64,000 nt of DNA from the human T2T-CHM13v2.0 reference genome, Homo sapiens. Below the pieces are notes generated by a model that searched no databases, was not told the origin of the DNA, and saw nothing but the letters and a program-made list of their open reading frames with translations. The DNA lies in assembly GCF_009914755.1 (NCBI RefSeq), contig NC_060933.1; one strand, 5' to 3'. The translations under genes were made by a program, and so were the position numbers. This document shows positions 22,231 through 33,981 of the stretch, in pieces (within the stretch, counting starts at the first letter, position 1; every line of letters begins with the position of its first letter).

Positions 22231-25200
22231 TAAGACACTTGTTTTTTCCCCCTGCAAATTAGAAACATTTGCTGAAGTAAACACTGTTGATGCATTAGCT
22301 GTCAGGATAGTGTATTATATTTGGAAAACATTTGCCAATGCCTGTTCAGTTTTTGAATTTCCAGTCACATGTGTTTTTTGTTTGAGCAAATGCATCAAGT
22401 AATAATGGATTTATTGTTAATTGTGCAACGTTGGAGCTTCAAGGTTTAAGTAATCTCCATTTCGTGTTGACTTTATTCCATGTTGACTGTAGAAGTTTGC
22501 AGTCTTTATTGATTAATGAAAAGTGATAACTGAGCACTATTACCACCTTGTATTCATCAAACTTTTATCAGAAGAAATTCAGGATTCTGCACGTAGACAA
22601 GTGTGCCAATAAAAGCATATTCCCTCCGAGAAAAAGGAGGGAAAGAGGTGTGGTTATCTCCACTTAAAACAGCTTTCCAAAGAGCTCCAATGGAGCTCAG
22701 ATTCAAATACAAACTTCCCCATTTAACACTTCAAAAATGAAATACTTCCTTCCGAGGAGCATTCTCCCCTGGTTAGAAAAACCAACAAAAAGCATTTGGG
22801 ATAGAAAAATTGGGACGGATAACTCATGTTCAAAATTCTTGACATTCATACACTATCAGTCATTGGAAGGTTTGAATCACTATGTTTAAAAAGTGCTTTC
22901 ACTTTTTCCCTCCTGCCTGTAGGAGGAAGATATGAGACAGAGAAGGATAATAGGATTTTTTTTTCATGTTGCAAACAACTTGTCTGGGCTCTAACTTTTC
23001 ATATTAAACCCTCAGAAAGAACTGTTGTGTCCTGCCCCTGCTCCTCCTTGCAAAAGAGAAACGCTTCTAGTCTTGGAAGATCTGTATTTGCCATGAATTT
23101 TATTTTGAGTCATGACTAAGCCACTTATTAGCAATATTGGTGATCAAGGTCTCCTACAGCACATGGATGAACTAAGTAATATGTACATTTATGTCCTTTT
23201 GTGTAAAGGAAAACTTATCAAAGCTGGACAGGACCTGAAAAGTTATTCTGTATGGCACTACATTTTATGGATGAGAAAATTTAAGAGAAACGTAAGCTAA
23301 TTTGTTTAAAGCCAGGCAGTGAATACATGGCACAGTTGGGATTAGGAGCCTCCAGGGTGGTTCTCCCACACCTACCTCGCTGTGGATAGAGGCTGACATC
23401 CAGGGAAAAGGCTTGGGAATTGCAGTTGCATGGGGTGAGCGGCCTCAGGCAAGCAGTCCACCTGGTGCCACTCAATCTCACCACTCACCGGGCTGTCAAG
23501 TCCCTTCTTCCAAAAACTAGTGTCCAGAGGACTGGTCCACAATGCCCCTGAAGCAGGTGGCCCCTGCTAGGTGAATTGAGTGCTGTTACAGCTTTGGCAG
23601 GGTTCCCAGGCAAGCAACAGCCCCTGCTGTGCCTTGACAAGAGAGGTGGCTGAACCTCCGGACAAAATGACTTGCTTTAGAGACAAGCAGGGAAAATATG
23701 ATTTGTTGTAGAATTCCTGTTAGTCCAGTCAGCTCCCATCCTCTTGAGAAACCGGATTTGTAGGCACATGCACTGGCCAATGAGTCAGCCCTTAAAAAGT
23801 CATTCATAATTTATGTATAAACAAGAATAGCTTTTGTTTCAGGGAATTTGGGAGGTTTTTGTAGCCTGCTTTCTTCCAGTACCATTTTTGAAGAACTGTT
23901 CCTGTCTCAAGGCTATTCCTATAGGCCTATAAATACTTTGATGTTCAGACATCTGGAACTTATATTTGGTGTTGACTAATGAGCATTATTATTTTATTAT
24001 GTATTTATATATGATCTGAAAGAAATCTGAGGTTATATGCCACATAACTCTGTATACACACTGAACAATGACAAATTCTTTTTACCCATTACACTTATGA
24101 TTTATTACTTGGGCAGAAGAGGTTCTGAGTCATGCAATTGACATATAATTGTGTTTTGGAAGATAGTAATGGGATAGAGAGAATGTAAAATTGCCCTTCA
24201 CATATATTGTTAAAATAATTTGTAAGTGGACAAAATGGACTCCAGAGATATTATTTCTCTCATTTAAAAAATATCAAAGGATAGCCAATATGGCAACAAA
24301 CCCCCGCTCTCCTTTTGAATGGGTAAAGAAGAGCCTTGGTCTTAGAAATACATGTGGGTATGTTTGAAAGGGTAATAAACAATGCATAATGGAACTGACA
24401 TCAAAGAACTCCTCTTGGAGAACCAGACCTAGTTCAAAGTCGAATGCTCGATACTCAGTTTGCCTTGGTACCAATGAGCTACAGGTAAACACTGTAAGAT
24501 CAAAGGCAAAGGTGGGTGTACGGAGGAGCGTGTGATGACATTACTTTCTCAGCAAAGCATTTCCCTCCAGGGACACTGGAGATGGTACCTTGTAACAGCC
24601 TCTGTTGTATATTCAGGAATTTATTTTAAAGGAGTGTCAGAGATATTTTAGTCTTTAAGAATTGCAGCTCAAAGACCATCGAACAAGAGGCACGCTGAAG
24701 GTGGCACGCACTGAGGGAAGAGGATACTGGGAAGGAAAGGAATAAATGGCCCCATTATGGGCCATACCAATCCTGCCTGCTTTCTTCTCCCTCCCACAAG
24801 CAACATCAGTGTGAACTGGTTTGGCCCATCAGCAGGCCCTCTGGCCCTTCATGGAAGAATGAGTCCTCTGTGCATGCAGGCAGAGCAGTTGCCAACAAAG
24901 GCCCATTGCAATGTTTGAAAGCCCGAACTTGCTGCTGAATCAAAGCATTTCCACAGGCTGAAGCTGTGAACAGGATAGGCCATCAACAGTGAGAGAAGCT
25001 CTGTGCAGCTCCCATAGAGAAACTTTAAAATTGACTTATCTGTTTGCTGACAGTCCCCAGTTTCAGTGCCACAGTGTGGGCAGTATTCATTTAAAGTCAT
25101 TCCCCAGAGGTCTGTTAAATTATACTGAACTGCATTTCAGGGTCTTTGTCTAGGAACCAGCTGACTGCATAGGAGAAGAAAAGTAAAAAAGAACCCAATT

Positions 25201-29550: not shown

Positions 29551-30438
29551 TACAAAATTGGTTCTGATAAATTCTACTTCTCCATTATTGACAACTTATA
29601 GAGTATACAAAAATCAAAGAATATAAAAATAACCAGAAATACAATCAACCAGAGATTGTCATGCTTAATAACTTGGTGAACTTCTTTCAGATGACTCTGT
29701 GCATGTACCCATAAATTCCGTGTATATTCTTTTCTTTCAACTGGAAAATACAGACGTTTAAAATACTGCTTTTTCCCTAAGTACATGTCATGGACCTCTT
29801 CCCTTGGCAATATATGAATTTACATCATCATTTAATTGCTGTAAAATATCCCATTATTTGTCTATACCATAATGTATTTAGCCAGCTCCCTATTGATCGG
29901 CATTGTATTCTAATTTTTCTATATTAACAACAAGAATGCTTCAACAGATATTCTATTGTTCGCTTTTTAAAACTTATTTCTGCCAATACTGCTTTCAAAT
30001 ATCCATAAGTAGAATATGTTTATCAGTGTATATTTACATTTTACACCTTGAATTATTGTTTTCTGCCAAGTCAGTTTCAGTAATCATATAGGAAATTATC
30101 TCATTTACCCACACTCATTATCTTTGCTGTGTTTTGTTTCTGAACCTGTTTAATCTTTGCCAATCTGATGGGTGAAATACATACTGAGTTTTGTTTTCAT
30201 TAACTTCTCTTTGACTATCAGTGGAGTTGAAAATCTTCATATATATTCATTGGCTATTAGTATTTCTTTATTTGTAAATTGGCTACTTATGTCCTTTGCC
30301 ATTACTCTTTTATCTGTATAAACTTTTAAAAACTCATTTGTTAATAGTTATTTGTATATTAGAAATATTACCCCTTGTGCTATCACAGGTGCTACAAATA
30401 TTTTCCAGTGGAGGGTTTACCTTTTAAGATTGTTTTTA

Positions 30439-30640
30439 GGCCAAGTACGGTGGCTCACACCTGTATTCCTAGCACTTCGGGAGTGGGAGGCCAAGGCATG
30501 AGGATCACGTGAGCCCAGGAGTTTGAGGCCAGCCTGGGCAACAGAGCAAGACCTGGCCTCTATAAGAAAAAGAAAAAGAAGAAGAAGAGGAAGAGGAAGA
30601 GGAGGAAGAGGAGGAGGAGGAGGAAGAGGAAGAAGAAGCA
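30439..30640 (+). mobile_element. FLAM_C monomer with a (GAA/GGA)n tail
   Basis: ggccaagtacggtggctcacacctgta...gagcccaggagtttgaggccagcctgggcaac; degenerate TSD aagattgttttta / aaagtgttttta. Confidence 0.88.
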
Positions 30641-30721
30641 GAAAGTGTTTTTAGCTACACAAAAGACTTTCCTTAATTATTGAAAATTTCAAACAAACAT
30701 ACCTTAAAAAAGGAGACAATA

Positions 30722-31071
30722 CTACTATGCAGCCATAAAAAATGATGAGTTCATGTCCTTTGTAGGGACATGGATGAAATTGGAAATCATCATTCTCAGT
30801 AAACTATCACAAGAACAAAAAACCAAACACCGCATATTCTCACTCAGGTGGGAACTGAACAATGAGATCACATGGACACAGGAAGGGGAATATCACACTC
30901 TGGGGACTGTGGTGGGGTTGGGGGAGGGGGGAGGGATAGCACTGGGAGATATACCTAATGCTAGATGACGAGTTGGTGGGTGCAGCACACCAGCATGGCA
31001 CATGTATACATATGTAACTAACCTGCACAATGTGCACATGTACCCTAAAACTTAAAGTATAATAAAAAAAA
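30722..31071 (+). mobile_element. Young 5'-truncated L1 3' end, L1PA2-like
   Basis: gagatcacatggacac, gaatatcacactctggggactgtggtgggg, ctagatgacGAGtt (GAG, not the L1HS ACA/ACG), cacaatgtgcac, cttaaagtataataaaaaaaa. Confidence 0.93.
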
Positions 31072-33030
31072 GAATGATAAATAGGTTAGAGGATAAATGA
31101 AGATTAAATAATGTTAAACATCAACCAAGTTCTTAGAACAACGCCTTACACATCAAAAAAATAAAATAAAAAGGTATTTTTATTATTTAGATTAGACCTT
31201 AGCTGCTACCATGTTATTTATAAAAGTAGGGAGATAATAATATTTTCATGTTACAGTAAAGGAAACCTCTATGTAAAGTGTGATTTCTCTAAATCTGAGA
31301 ACATTTTCAAAGGATGTATTCAGTATTCAAAATCCCTGCCAAAAGTTTACTCTTTTGACTCCTACACGTGTTTCTTTCTTAATTTTGAGGTTTTATTAAG
31401 AAATTATTATTTGAATAAGGACATGAAATTCTTAATATTACCAGGACAAATAACAGACATTTTTATATAGGACCAAACTTCTGAATTTGAAAGTCTTTTA
31501 TGGGTCCAGTCTCCAGGAGAGGAGACCACCGTATTGCTAAACCTTAGAGTGTAATTTAAAAAGTCAGTGATAAAGACAATGGTGACAACATCCAATACCA
31601 AGAGCATGATGCATGCTGTACCCTTTACTCTCTTGAAATGCCTTAATTAAAAAGAGGGTTCATTCATGCATCCATTATTACTCATTAGAATCAAGTTTGT
31701 CTTTTAGTAAACCATGTGGTACATTATTTTCTACAACTCATAAAAAACACCTTATTCTCACTTTTTTGACATAAATCAATGCGTGATGTGAGAAAGTGAA
31801 GATTTCAATAATATTTCTACTCTTATTTAATTTTGTATTAAATAGACCATTTTTAGAGCAGTTTTAGGTTCACAGTGAAAATCTGCAGACAGTAGAGAGT
31901 TCCCGTAAACCAGCTGCTTCTCCCACCACACACAACCTCCATAACTATCAACATTTCACTCCCCAGTAGTACACTGGTTACAACTGAGAAACCTGTGTAG
32001 ACACATCATTATCACCCGAAGTTCATAGTTTATTTTAGGATTCACCCTTGGCACTGTACATTCTTTGGGTTTTGAGAAATGTATAATGACATGCATTCAC
32101 TATTGTAGTATCACACAGCACAATTCCACTACCCTAAAAATCCTTTGTACTCTGCCTATTCACCCCTTCCTCCTCTAACCTTAGCAACCACTGAAATTTT
32201 TATTGTCTCCATAGTTCTGCATTTTCCAGGATGTCATACCATTGGAATCACATAGTATGTAGCCCTTTCAGATTGACTTCTTTCACTCAGTAGTATGGGT
32301 TTAAGGTTCCTCCATGTCTTTTTGATGGCTTGATAGCTCATTTCCTTTTATCACTGTATAGTACTCCATTGTCTGAATGTGCCACCATATTTTTATCCAT
32401 TTACTTATTGAAGGGCATCTTGGGTGCTCCCAGCTTTGGGTAAGTATGAATAAAGCTGCTGTAAACATTCACGTGCAGGCTTTTATGTGGACATAATTGC
32501 TCAACTCACTTGGGTAATTAGCAAGGAATGTGATTGTTGGATCATGTAGTAAAAGTATGTTTGGTTTTGTAAGGAACTGCCAAATTCTCTGCCAAATTGA
32601 CCATAACATTTTGCATTTTCTCTAGAAATGATTGAGACTTCCAGAGTCTCCACATCCTCATTAGCATTTGGTATTGTCAGTATTTTGGATTTGGCCATTC
32701 TAATAGGTGTGTAGTGGCATCTCGTTGTATTAGAGAATTTGGAATTCCCTAATGATATATGATGTTGAACATCTTTTTGTATGCTTATTTGAAATTTGTA
32801 TATAATTTTTGACAAGATATCTATGATCTTTGGCCTATTTTTTAATAGAATTTTTCATTTTCTCATCGTTTCAAGAATTTTTGTGTACATTTAAGAAAGT
32901 AGTCCTTTATCAGCTACATCTTTTGCAAAAATTTTCTCCCAGTCTGTGGCTTATATTCTCATTCTCTTGACATTGTCTTTCACAGAACATGGCTTCTTAA
33001 TTTTAATAAAATTCAGCTTATCAAAAAAAA
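31072..33030 (+). other. L1-mediated 3' transduced segment (~1.95 kb) with its own AATAAA and poly(A)
   Basis: Lies between the L1 poly(A) and a second AATAAA (33005-33010) plus A-run (33023-33036); whole unit bounded by aaaaaaggagacaata (30706-30721) and aaaaaaggagagaata (33031-33046). Confidence 0.88.
31822..33022 (-). mobile_element. L1MC1/2-type 3' end carried within the transduced segment
   Basis: ttttagagcagttttaggttcacag...acacatcattatcacccgaagttcatagttta...ggccattctaataggtgtgtagtggcatctc; ends abruptly at the poly(A). Confidence 0.88.
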
Positions 33031-33981
33031 AAAAAAGGAGAGAATAATATAAGTAAACCCCTGCCCCCTGTGCCCATCATCCACCTTCAAAAGTTATTAA
33101 TTCAGGGACCATGTTGTTTCAGTTTCAAACCTCTTTTCTTCCAACTTTTTGTTCTTTTGAAGCAAATCCCAGACACCCTATTATTACATCTACAAATACT
33201 TCAGTAGGTATTTCTAAAAGATAGTCTTCAGAGGTTTCTGTTTTCTAATGTCATCAAATTTTTAAAATCAATTTATTTTATTTTGGATTCTGGTTTTTGG
33301 GATATATTCAAGGTCAAATTATTTTTAAAATATATTTACAATTTTTCAGGTATTGCCTTGTTTTTAATATTTAAATATTTAATCTTTTTCAAAATTACTG
33401 TGGGACAAGAAGCAAGATGGGGACATAGTATTATATCCCTATCTCCCAATACCATTTATTAAATATTTTCCCCAACTAAGGTAAAACATTTCCCCCAATT
33501 TTTATTATATAAAAAACTTCCAACTTACTTAAGATGGCTTCTGCATTGATCCACTAGTCTATCAGTGATTTCTCCATCAGTAAATACCATAATGTTTTAA
33601 TTTATGTTACTTTCTACAAAATTTTAGTAACTGGTATGATGTTTTTCCTCATTAGACCTTTTTCCTAATTTTTAAGCTATTGTAACCTTATTCATCCAAA
33701 TTAATTTTTTTAAATAATTTTGTTCCATTCTCTAAAATCTTGTTGTGCTTTTAACTGGTAATTCATTTGTATTATAGATTAATTTAGGGACAATCATTAT
33801 TTTCTAAAATTGAATTTTTCTAACCAAAAATAAGTGGCCTCTTCATTTATTCAAGTCTTTGTCAATCAGTAGTGTTCTCCAGGATTCATACAGGTCCTAT
33901 CATTTTCTTTATAAGTTAGCTAGTTTATGCTTTTTTACTGCTATCATGAATCAAACCTTTTAAAATATTTTCTAGTTGATT

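What the first reader, a model, noticed from the sequence alone, without database searches (positions are those of the whole stretch)
30706..33046. Young L1PA2-type element appears to have imported ~1.95 kb of foreign DNA (long 3' transduction)
Seen: the 350-bp L1 3' end (30722-31071) has no target-site duplication after its own poly(A). Its left flank tt|aaaaaaggagacaata reappears as aaaaaaggagagaata about 2 kb downstream (33031-33046, 15/16 identical), right after a second AATAAA (33005-33010), 12 nt and an A-run. Removing the interval rejoins one old L1MC5/ME-type fragment. Established: L1 endonuclease nicks TT/AAAA, and read-through of the weak L1 poly(A) signal mobilises 3' flanks. Inference: about 85% of this insertion is cargo (~750 bp largely non-repetitive plus an antisense L1MC piece) copied from a donor locus in hominoid time. 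A repeat masker would show three unrelated annotations and miss the event. The cargo also acts as a barcode for the source element.
Basis: partly seen in the sequence, partly recalled or inferred. Interest (0 to 1): 0.85.

Follow-up and report, generated by a model that had tools for sequence, protein, structure and literature searches.

The report
L1 insertion carrying chr3 DNA
A truncated L1 retrotransposon on human chromosome 9 brought about 1.95 kb of chromosome 3 sequence with it in one insertion, an ordinary example of a well-known process, except that the parent L1 is no longer present at the chromosome 3 source.

Summary
A 16-nt direct repeat, identical at 15 of 16 positions, brackets window 30722-33030. 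It is found nowhere else in the window at one mismatch or fewer. The bracketed insert reads, in order:
- one filler C;
- the last 349 nt of a young L1 with an A8 run;
- 1,953 nt of non-L1PA cargo;
- AATAAA at 33005-33010;
- a 6-8 nt A tail.

The target site reads TT/AAAAAA. Six older paralogues of the flanking repeat run through a single copy of the 16-mer.

The cargo has one close relative in the genome, chr3:30330178-30332138 on the minus strand. It differs by 40 substitutions in 1,953 columns and two 3-nt indels. On chr3 the old antisense L1 continues past the cleavage point without poly(A).

One prediction failed: no L1 lies next to the chr3 source. The homology does begin exactly at a TT/AAGA site there, as expected for the unoccupied allele of a donor L1.

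Best reading (0.85): a 5'-truncated L1 3' transduction about 9-10 Myr old whose donor L1 was never fixed or was later lost. No sibling copies were found. The L1PA2 label is unverified. This is a known kind of event, so interest is low.

The parts
30706..30721 (+). 5' copy of the 16-nt target-site duplication. It is preceded by TT, giving a TT/AAAAAA L1 endonuclease-type site.
   Evidence: It is one of only two <=1-mismatch occurrences in the window. It is part of the old flanking repeat.
30722..30722 (+). Single filler base (C) at the 5' junction. It matches neither the target site nor L1.
   Evidence: In one search the L1 homology starts at query position 2. In one search all 11 relatives lack this base and read ...GGAA or ...GAAA upstream of the match.
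30723..31071 (+). 5'-truncated young L1: the end of ORF2 and the 3' UTR. It carries GAG at 30970-30972, its own AATAAA at 31061-31066 and an A8 run at 31064-31071. The last two As could equally come from the chr3 template.
   Evidence: 97-98% identity to 39 other genomic L1 copies; it differs from at least 9 of its 11 nearest copies only by a 2-nt deletion at 30845 and one substitution at 30855. One search gives the meaning of GAG.
31072..31849 (+). Transduced cargo, part 1: sequence present at only two places in the genome (here and chr3).
   Evidence: two places only; 15 substitutions in 778 nt against chr3.
31850..33024 (-). Transduced cargo, part 2: an old, decayed L1 (ORF2 C-terminal region and 3' part) lying antisense to the young L1. 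It was copied from chr3 as part of the same transcript.
   Evidence: minus-strand peptides are collinear with ORF2 of a young L1 at 29-53% amino-acid identity; chr3 98%, next best genomic copy 76%; 25 substitutions in 1,175 nt.
33005..33010 (+). AATAAA poly(A) signal that ended the read-through transcript. Cleavage fell 12-14 nt downstream, after ...TTATCA(A).
   Evidence: the same hexamer on chr3 is followed by the most GU/U-rich downstream stretch (GT fraction 0.70) of the 8 hexamers up to that point.
33025..33030 (+). Non-templated poly(A) tail, 6 nt. It is 8 nt if 33023-33024, which also match chr3, are counted.
33031..33046 (+). 3' copy of the target-site duplication, with one mismatch (G where the 5' copy has C).

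Best explanation
Window 30722-33030 is one L1-mediated insertion: a 5'-truncated L1 with a long (1.95 kb) 3' transduction.

Proposed sequence of events (inferred):
1. An L1 of the L1PA2-or-older grade once sat on chromosome 3, on the minus strand, immediately upstream of position 30332138.
2. Transcription ran through that L1's own weak AATAAA/A-run and through seven further AATAAA/ATTAAA hexamers.
3. The transcript was cleaved and polyadenylated 12-14 nt after an AATAAA that lies inside an old antisense L1 on chr3.
4. The L1 machinery nicked chr9 at TT/AAAAAA and primed reverse transcription on the new poly(A).
5. It copied the 1,953-nt chr3 flank and then only the last 349 nt of the L1 before stopping.
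6. Second-strand processing left a 16-nt target-site duplication.

The copies differ by K2P 0.021, which dates the event to about 9-10 Myr ago at 1.0-1.2e-9 substitutions per site per year.

The donor L1 is absent from the chr3 site in this genome. Most likely it was a polymorphic allele that was never fixed. Less likely it was removed precisely later.

Shown directly: the anatomy, the single target-site duplication, the chr3 origin of the cargo and the direction of copying.
Inferred: that a donor L1 existed at chr3, that it was full length and drove the transcript, and the age in years.
For: 1. Single event. A 16-nt duplication (15 of 16 identical) brackets L1 plus cargo. The 16-mer has no other <=1-mismatch occurrence in the window, so none follows the L1's own A8 run (P about 9e-8 at a fixed place).
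2. Target site. The target reads TT/AAAAAA. Both copies of the duplication are part of one old repeat that is continuous in six paralogues.
3. Origin of the cargo. Window 31070-33024 matches chr3:30332138-30330178 at 97.65% over 1,961 columns. A global alignment gives 40 substitutions in 1,953 columns, evenly spread across bins (9, 6, 11, 6, 8), plus two 3-nt indels. No other genomic place matched the first 94 nt or nt 19-769 of the cargo.
4. Direction chr3 to chr9. On chr3 the antisense old L1 runs on past the cleavage point with no A run, and the upstream sequence continues without an L1. The chr9 copy ends in AATAAA, 12-14 nt, then A tail.
5. A credible poly(A) site on chr3: AATAAA followed by the most GU/U-rich downstream region of the hexamers met so far.
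6. Donor footprint. Homology to chr3 starts exactly after TT, in ...GAGATT/AAGAATG... TTAA occurs at 0.9% of positions and TTAAGA at 0.08% of positions on that strand of the 16-kb chr3 stretch.
7. Order of parts. L1 on the 5' side, unique DNA on the 3' side and a terminal poly(A) is the arrangement described for 3' transduction (PMC9311842, passages). That paper also reports a non-reference progenitor L1 with 21 offspring, so donors missing from a reference assembly are known.
8. The young L1 piece and the age are compatible. It is 97-98% identical to many genomic copies, and GAG means L1PA2 or older.
Against: 1. No donor L1. The feature that would clinch the case, an L1 directly upstream of the chr3 source, was looked for and is absent in this assembly.
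2. No siblings. No copy carries the same cargo (in one search only 40 of 6,200 candidates were scored).
3. No outgroup test. The orthologous empty site in other primates could not be examined, so single-event insertion rests on the duplication and on paralogues, not on orthologues.
4. Short A runs. The internal A run (8 nt) and the terminal tail (6-8 nt) are short. This fits decay over about 10 Myr but gives little independent support.
5. Low private load in the L1 piece. It differs from its 11 nearest relatives by only one substitution and one 2-nt deletion in 349 nt. That is fewer than the roughly 3-4 changes expected at about 1% per lineage. However, those relatives were picked for similarity to the query, so the count is a lower bound.
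Confidence: 0.85

Rival explanations
1. Chimeric retrocopy without a chr3 donor L1. The L1 reverse transcriptase started on a polyadenylated chr3 transcript at the chr9 nick. At an AA in that RNA it switched template to the poly(A) end of an L1 mRNA (or copied a pre-ligated L1/chr3 RNA). It then stopped after 349 nt of L1.
For: There is no L1 at the chr3 source in this genome. The junction has AA in the chr3 sequence next to the L1 A run, a microhomology that could guide a template jump. A single target-site duplication and a terminal poly(A) are expected under this model too. L1 chimeras with other RNAs, made by template switching or RNA ligation, are documented (PMC13174262, passages).
Against: The documented chimeras described in the passages read have the foreign RNA at the 5' end of the L1 part, usually a small RNA, an Alu or a first exon (PMC13174262, passages). 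Here the order is reversed. The boundary on chr3 is preceded by TT, giving TT/AAGA. This model does not predict that, and it is rare by chance (TTAA 0.9%, TTAAGA 0.08% of positions). No evidence for a transcript start at that position was available. 3' transduction is reported as common, in about 25% of insertions according to the abstract of PMC13009371 (search listing only).
Confidence: 0.07
2. Two separate insertions. A processed retrocopy of a chr3 transcript landed first at chr9 and made the 16-nt duplication. Later a 349-nt L1 fragment inserted exactly at its 5' edge. The reverse order is also conceivable.
For: Nested insertions are common in this region. An Alu-like unit with a GAA-rich tail sits just upstream at about 30430-30643.
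Against: The L1 piece has no target-site duplication of its own. It would have had to land within a base or two of the junction of a 2-kb retrocopy. The chr3 boundary at TT/AAGA and the merging of the L1 A run with the chr3 AA would be coincidences.
Confidence: 0.02
3. DNA-level duplication from chr3 to chr9 (segmental or repair-mediated) that happens to lie next to an L1 fragment, with the 16-mer match arising by chance.
For: Short near-repeats are frequent in this AT-rich stretch: 16 families in 2.8 kb.
Against: The copy ends precisely 12-14 nt after AATAAA with added As that chr3 lacks. The 16-mer pair is unique in the window and sits exactly at both ends. The flanks are one continuous old repeat. 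The target is TT/AAAAAA.
Confidence: 0.01

Closest known systems
L1 3' transduction: read-through of the weak L1 poly(A) signal, so that the downstream flank is retrotransposed together with the L1 (as described in PMC9311842; the original reports by Moran, Goodier and Pickeral are recalled, not read here)
   Same: The L1 3' end with its own A run is followed by non-L1 DNA in the same orientation. There is a second AATAAA and a second poly(A). One target-site duplication encloses everything, and the target is TT/AAAA. The cargo maps to a single other locus, which continues without poly(A).
   Different: The donor L1 is not present at the source locus in this assembly. At 1.95 kb the cargo is 85% of the insert. 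No sibling insertions were found.
Orphan or near-orphan transductions, and offspring of non-reference (polymorphic) progenitor L1s
   Same: The insert is mostly transduced DNA with very little L1, and the progenitor is not in the reference genome. PMC9311842 reports a non-reference chr6 progenitor with 21 offspring.
   Different: Those cases are recent polymorphisms or somatic events. This one is about 2% diverged from its source, so it is an old, presumably fixed, germline event whose donor allele has vanished.
L1 chimeric insertions (U6/L1, 5S/L1, Alu/L1, mRNA/L1) made by template switching or RNA ligation (PMC13174262)
   Same: A bipartite insert made in one TPRT event, flanked by one target-site duplication at an L1 endonuclease motif.
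   Different: In the known chimeras described in the passages read, the foreign RNA lies at the 5' end of the L1. Here the L1 lies 5' and the foreign sequence carries the terminal poly(A).
Processed retrocopy of a host transcript
   Same: A polyadenylated copy of a distant locus, inserted by L1 machinery with a target-site duplication.
   Different: The 5' part is an L1 3' end that is not present at the source locus. The cargo shows no spliced structure; it is collinear with chr3 genomic DNA over 1,953 nt.

Membership tests
L1 3' transduction (offspring insertion) | L1 3' end followed, in the same orientation, by non-L1 sequence | tested here: met
   L1 homology spans 30723-31071. It is followed by 1,953 nt with no young-L1 similarity.
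L1 3' transduction (offspring insertion) | Downstream poly(A) signal and non-templated poly(A) at the end of the extra sequence | tested here: met
   AATAAA at 33005-33010, and an A run from 33023. chr3 lacks the A run.
L1 3' transduction (offspring insertion) | One target-site duplication enclosing L1 plus extra sequence, and none around the L1 alone | tested here: met
   A 15-of-16 duplication at 30706-30721 and 33031-33046, with no other <=1-mismatch copy of the 16-mer in the window.
L1 3' transduction (offspring insertion) | Insertion at an L1 endonuclease-type site (TT/AAAA) | tested here: met
   The left flank reads ccTT/AAAAAAGG.
L1 3' transduction (offspring insertion) | The extra sequence maps to another locus that continues past the cleavage point without poly(A) | tested here: met
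   chr3:30330178-30332138, 97.65% identity. The chr3 sequence reads on into the old antisense L1.
L1 3' transduction (offspring insertion) | The source sequence lies immediately 3' of a (full-length) L1 of matching type. This is corroborating; progenitors can be non-reference. | tested here: not met
   No L1 at chr3:30332139 onward. The nearest L1 is 6.58 kb upstream and 88% identical to the chr9 piece. The boundary is a TT/AAGA site, consistent with an unoccupied donor allele.
L1 3' transduction (offspring insertion) | Orthologous pre-insertion (empty) site in an outgroup species | not testable with these tools
   Only the window's own genome is held. As a proxy, six paralogues of the flanking old repeat are continuous through one copy of the 16-mer.
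L1PA2 subfamily | Subfamily-diagnostic bases in the 3' UTR | tested here: inconclusive
   GAG at 30970-30972 excludes L1Hs Ta (ACA) and pre-Ta (ACG) and indicates 'L1PA2 or older' (PMC7026601). No repeat library or named consensus was available to separate L1PA2 from L1PA3 or L1PA4.
L1 chimeric insertion (template switch or RNA ligation) | Foreign RNA joined to the 5' end of the L1 part, with the L1 carrying the terminal poly(A) | tested here: not met
   The order here is L1 then foreign sequence then poly(A). The known order is taken from PMC13174262.

The most novel reading that the evidence does not exclude
The insert is not a read-through product at all. Instead it is a reverse-order L1 chimera. 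TPRT began on a polyadenylated chr3 transcript and then jumped onto the poly(A) end of an L1 mRNA. That would be a class of L1/cellular-RNA recombinant (L1 at the 5' side, cellular RNA at the 3' side) that the chimera catalogue consulted here does not describe in the passages read. The lack of any L1 at the chr3 source keeps this reading open.
Probability: 0.07. Interest if true: 0.5.

Novelty: new member of a known kind. Interest (0 to 1): 0.2.

Why it matters
The case shows that three unrelated-looking repeat annotations are one retrotransposition event that moved about 2 kb of chromosome 3 to chromosome 9. The insert also preserves the only trace in this genome of an L1 allele at chr3:30332138 that was active roughly 9-10 Myr ago and then disappeared. 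Such 'ghost donor' cases illustrate that active L1s are often transient alleles, and they give datable markers for ape phylogeny. None of this changes current understanding of L1 biology. No gene or annotated functional element is involved; the hub's table lists no gene within 100 kb after the lncRNA exon that ends at 23903.

Tried and rejected
- Sibling insertions that share the cargo barcode: none found with cargo nt 19-769, the first 94 nt or the last 623 nt. In one search chr3 scored 98% and the next best copy 76%, and only 40 of 6,200 candidates were scored.
- The upstream chr3 L1 (30338721-30340564) as donor: rejected. It is 6.58 kb away and only 88% identical to the chr9 L1 piece, whereas the cargo is about 98% identical to chr3.
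- A target-site duplication around the L1 alone: none. The 16-mer has no third copy in the window, and nothing after the A8 run resembles the left flank.
- A second copy of the chr3 junction motif near the chr3 site, as a scar of an imprecise deletion: none in the 16 kb examined.
- Pfam scan of five translated pieces (one from the young L1 end, four from the antisense cargo): no family below E 0.01. The L1 nature and orientation of the cargo's 3' part were shown instead by tblastn against a young L1 copy.
- Naming the L1 subfamily: the primer paper PMC12432230 has no 3'-end diagnostics. Khan 2006 and Szak 2003 are not held.
- Counting private differences against the 11 nearest copies gives only a biased lower bound, so it does not date the L1.
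- No search was made for this specific locus in print, and the supplementary tables of transduction catalogues were not examined. Whether this event is already listed somewhere is unknown.
Full report
**What is in the sequence.** The window is human chr9:120590001-120654000 (T2T-CHM13). Reading 30300-33500 shows the following, in order:
- an old repeat ending in ...ccTT;
- the 16-mer AAAAAAGGAGACAATA (30706-30721);
- one C (30722);
- a young L1 3' end (30723-31071) with its own AATAAA (31061-31066) and an 8-nt A run;
- 1,953 nt of other sequence (31072-33024);
- AATAAA at 33005-33010;
- an A run from 33023;
- the 16-mer again as AAAAAAGGAGAGAATA (33031-33046);
- the old repeat resuming.

The repeat finder reports the 16-mer pair (extended to 17 of 19) among 16 short repeat families in 2.8 kb. 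Short near-repeats are therefore common here. This pair stands apart, however:
- It gives the only two occurrences within one mismatch on either strand of the whole 64-kb window.
- A match of that quality at a fixed place has a composition-based probability of 9e-8.
- The A run before the second copy is the first run of 10 or more As downstream of the L1.

The 16-mer has no third copy in the window, so none follows the L1's own A run, and by eye nothing after that A run resembles the left flank.

**The flanks are one old repeat.** I searched the genome with the right flank (40 of 101 candidates scored) and took 19 paralogous loci. I then located both flanks in them. In six loci (L020, L022, L031, L033, L034, L037) the left flank aligns directly upstream of the right flank. 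In those six, both copies of the 16-mer map to the same place.

An in-silico empty site (left flank, one 16-mer, right flank) aligns collinearly with all six through the junction. The other 13 loci matched only the more distal part of the right flank, or too weakly on the left to judge. This serves as a paralogue proxy for the pre-insertion site.

**Where the cargo came from.** The window's own genome can be searched.
- Cargo nt 31090-31840 has exactly two places: itself, and chr3:30331365-30332118 on the minus strand at 98%.
- After fetching 16 kb of chr3, BLAST aligns window 31070-33024 to chr3:30332138-30330178 at 97.65% over 1,961 columns.
- A global alignment gives 40 substitutions in 1,953 ungapped columns: 25 transitions and 15 transversions, 7 of them in a CpG context. 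There are also two 3-nt indels. The differences are spread evenly, and K2P is 0.0208.

The cargo's 3' 1.2 kb is an old L1 lying antisense. Minus-strand peptides from 32301-32854 match, in collinear order, the ORF2 C-terminal region of a young L1 copy at 29-53% amino-acid identity. At the DNA level the best genomic relative after chr3 is only 76% identical.

**Direction of copying.**
- 3' boundary: chr3 reads AATAAAATTCAGCTTATCAATTGCTTCG... and continues into the old L1. chr9 reads AATAAAATTCAGCTTATCA followed by As and then the 16-mer.
- 5' boundary: chr3 reads ...AAAAATGAGATT/AAGAATGATAAATAGG..., while chr9 has the L1 end plus A8 followed by GAATGATAAATAGG.

So chr3 is the template and chr9 is the polyadenylated copy.

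On chr3 the hexamer that was used is followed by a GU/U-rich stretch with a GT fraction of 0.70. That is the highest value among the eight AATAAA/ATTAAA hexamers from the junction up to that point, seven of which were passed. This is weak but consistent support for a real cleavage site.

**The failed prediction.** It does not. There is no L1 at chr3:30332139 onward. The nearest L1 in the same orientation is at 30338721-30340564, 6.58 kb upstream. It is 93.7% identical to a young L1 over 1,851 nt but only 88% identical to the chr9 L1 piece over the last 350 nt. Since the cargo is about 98% identical, that L1 is not the donor.

The homology does begin exactly after TT, at TT/AAGA. TTAA occurs at 0.9% and TTAAGA at 0.08% of positions on that strand of the 16-kb stretch. 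A site of this form is what the unoccupied allele of an endonuclease-mediated L1 insertion would look like. The L1 endonuclease preference for TT/AAAA and its variants is stated in PMC7026601 and PMC13174262 (passages). My recollection that TT/AAGA is a frequent variant is not from a call.

**Mechanism.** The most likely account is a classical 3' transduction (definition in PMC9311842, passages):
1. A donor L1 on chr3 was transcribed through its weak signal.
2. The transcript ended at the AATAAA inside the old antisense L1.
3. The RNA was reverse-transcribed at a TT/AAAAAA nick on chr9.
4. Synthesis stopped 349 nt into the L1.
5. One filler base and a 16-nt duplication were left.

The donor allele is missing today, most simply because it never reached fixation. 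PMC9311842 reports a non-reference progenitor with 21 offspring, which shows that donors absent from a reference assembly exist. I could not read the older catalogues of fixed transductions: Szak 2003 is not held. How often old transductions lack a donor is therefore my inference.

Whether the donor was full length, and whether its own promoter drove the transcript, cannot be known from a 349-nt remnant.

**Age and subfamily.**
- K2P of 0.0208 gives 8.7-10.4 Myr at 1.0-1.2e-9 per site per year, or 20.8 Myr at 0.5e-9.
- Against recalled genome-wide divergences (human-gorilla about 1.6-1.75%, human-orangutan above 3%), 2.05% places the event around the stem of the African apes. My own Poisson range from the 40 substitutions is about 1.4-2.7%.
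- The L1 piece is 97-98% identical to the 39 other scored genomic copies (40 of 2,118 candidates scored).
- It differs from at least 9 of its 11 nearest copies only by a 2-nt deletion and one substitution. This is a biased lower bound, because those copies were chosen for similarity.
- It has GAG at 30970-30972, which PMC7026601 calls indicative of L1PA2 or older, as against ACA (Ta) and ACG (pre-Ta).
- Ages quoted from Khan's analysis in PMC4083085 bracket L1PA6 to L1PA3 between 26.8 and 7.6 Myr. PMC5860796 gives L1PA6 as about 27 Myr.
- The event therefore fits the L1PA3/L1PA2 period. The specific label L1PA2 is neither confirmed nor refuted.

**Rivals.**
- *Template-switch or RNA-ligation chimera (about 0.07).* It would explain the missing donor, and the AA at the junction could serve as microhomology. 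Against it, the chimeras described in the passages of PMC13174262 that I read carry the foreign RNA on the 5' side of the L1, and the TT before the boundary would be coincidence.
- *Two successive insertions (about 0.02).* This would need an L1 without its own duplication landing exactly on the edge of a retrocopy.
- *DNA-level duplication with a chance repeat (about 0.01).* This is contradicted by the added poly(A), the unique 16-mer pair and the continuous old repeat.

**Novelty and verdict.** This is a cleanly documented, old, probably fixed L1 3' transduction. It has a long cargo (85% of the 2,309-nt insert), no surviving donor and no siblings in this genome. The process is textbook knowledge, so the case is a new member of a known kind at most. 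I did not search for this locus pair in print, nor read catalogue supplements, so it may already be listed. Interest is low (0.2). The most novel reading left open is the reverse-order chimera.

Noticed in passing
window 30430-30643: An Alu-like unit of about 130 nt is followed by a GAA/GAG-rich simple repeat (30564-30643; period 6, 13 copies). It sits immediately upstream of the old repeat that received the L1 insertion, so it truncates or interrupts that old repeat on its left side.
   Followed up: no
L003/L004: chr3:30338721-30340564 (minus strand): An older L1 lies 6.58 kb upstream of the cargo source, in the same orientation. It is 93.7% identical to a young L1 over 1,851 nt, and its last 350 nt are 88% identical to the window's L1. 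It is not the donor, but it shows that the chr3 region has taken L1 insertions in this orientation before.
   Followed up: partly
L010 (chr7:90524872-90525222 and flanks): One of the nearest L1 relatives is itself a short 5'-truncated copy. An obvious duplication (…AAGAATGAAGCAGGGAG…) appears directly before the L1 and directly after its A-rich tail. It is a handy ordinary comparator: there the duplication follows the L1's own tail, which is not the case in the window.
   Followed up: no
window 31157-31175 and chr3:30332043-30332053: Two overlapping AATAAA hexamers lie only 90-95 nt into the cargo and are followed by a T-rich stretch. The read-through transcript passed them. Offspring ending here would carry a transduction of about 100 nt, but no such sibling was found with the first 94 nt.
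   Followed up: yes
window 31389 and 32723: The only two indels between the chr9 copy and chr3 are each 3 nt, present in chr3 and absent from chr9. Which copy changed cannot be told without an outgroup.
   Followed up: no
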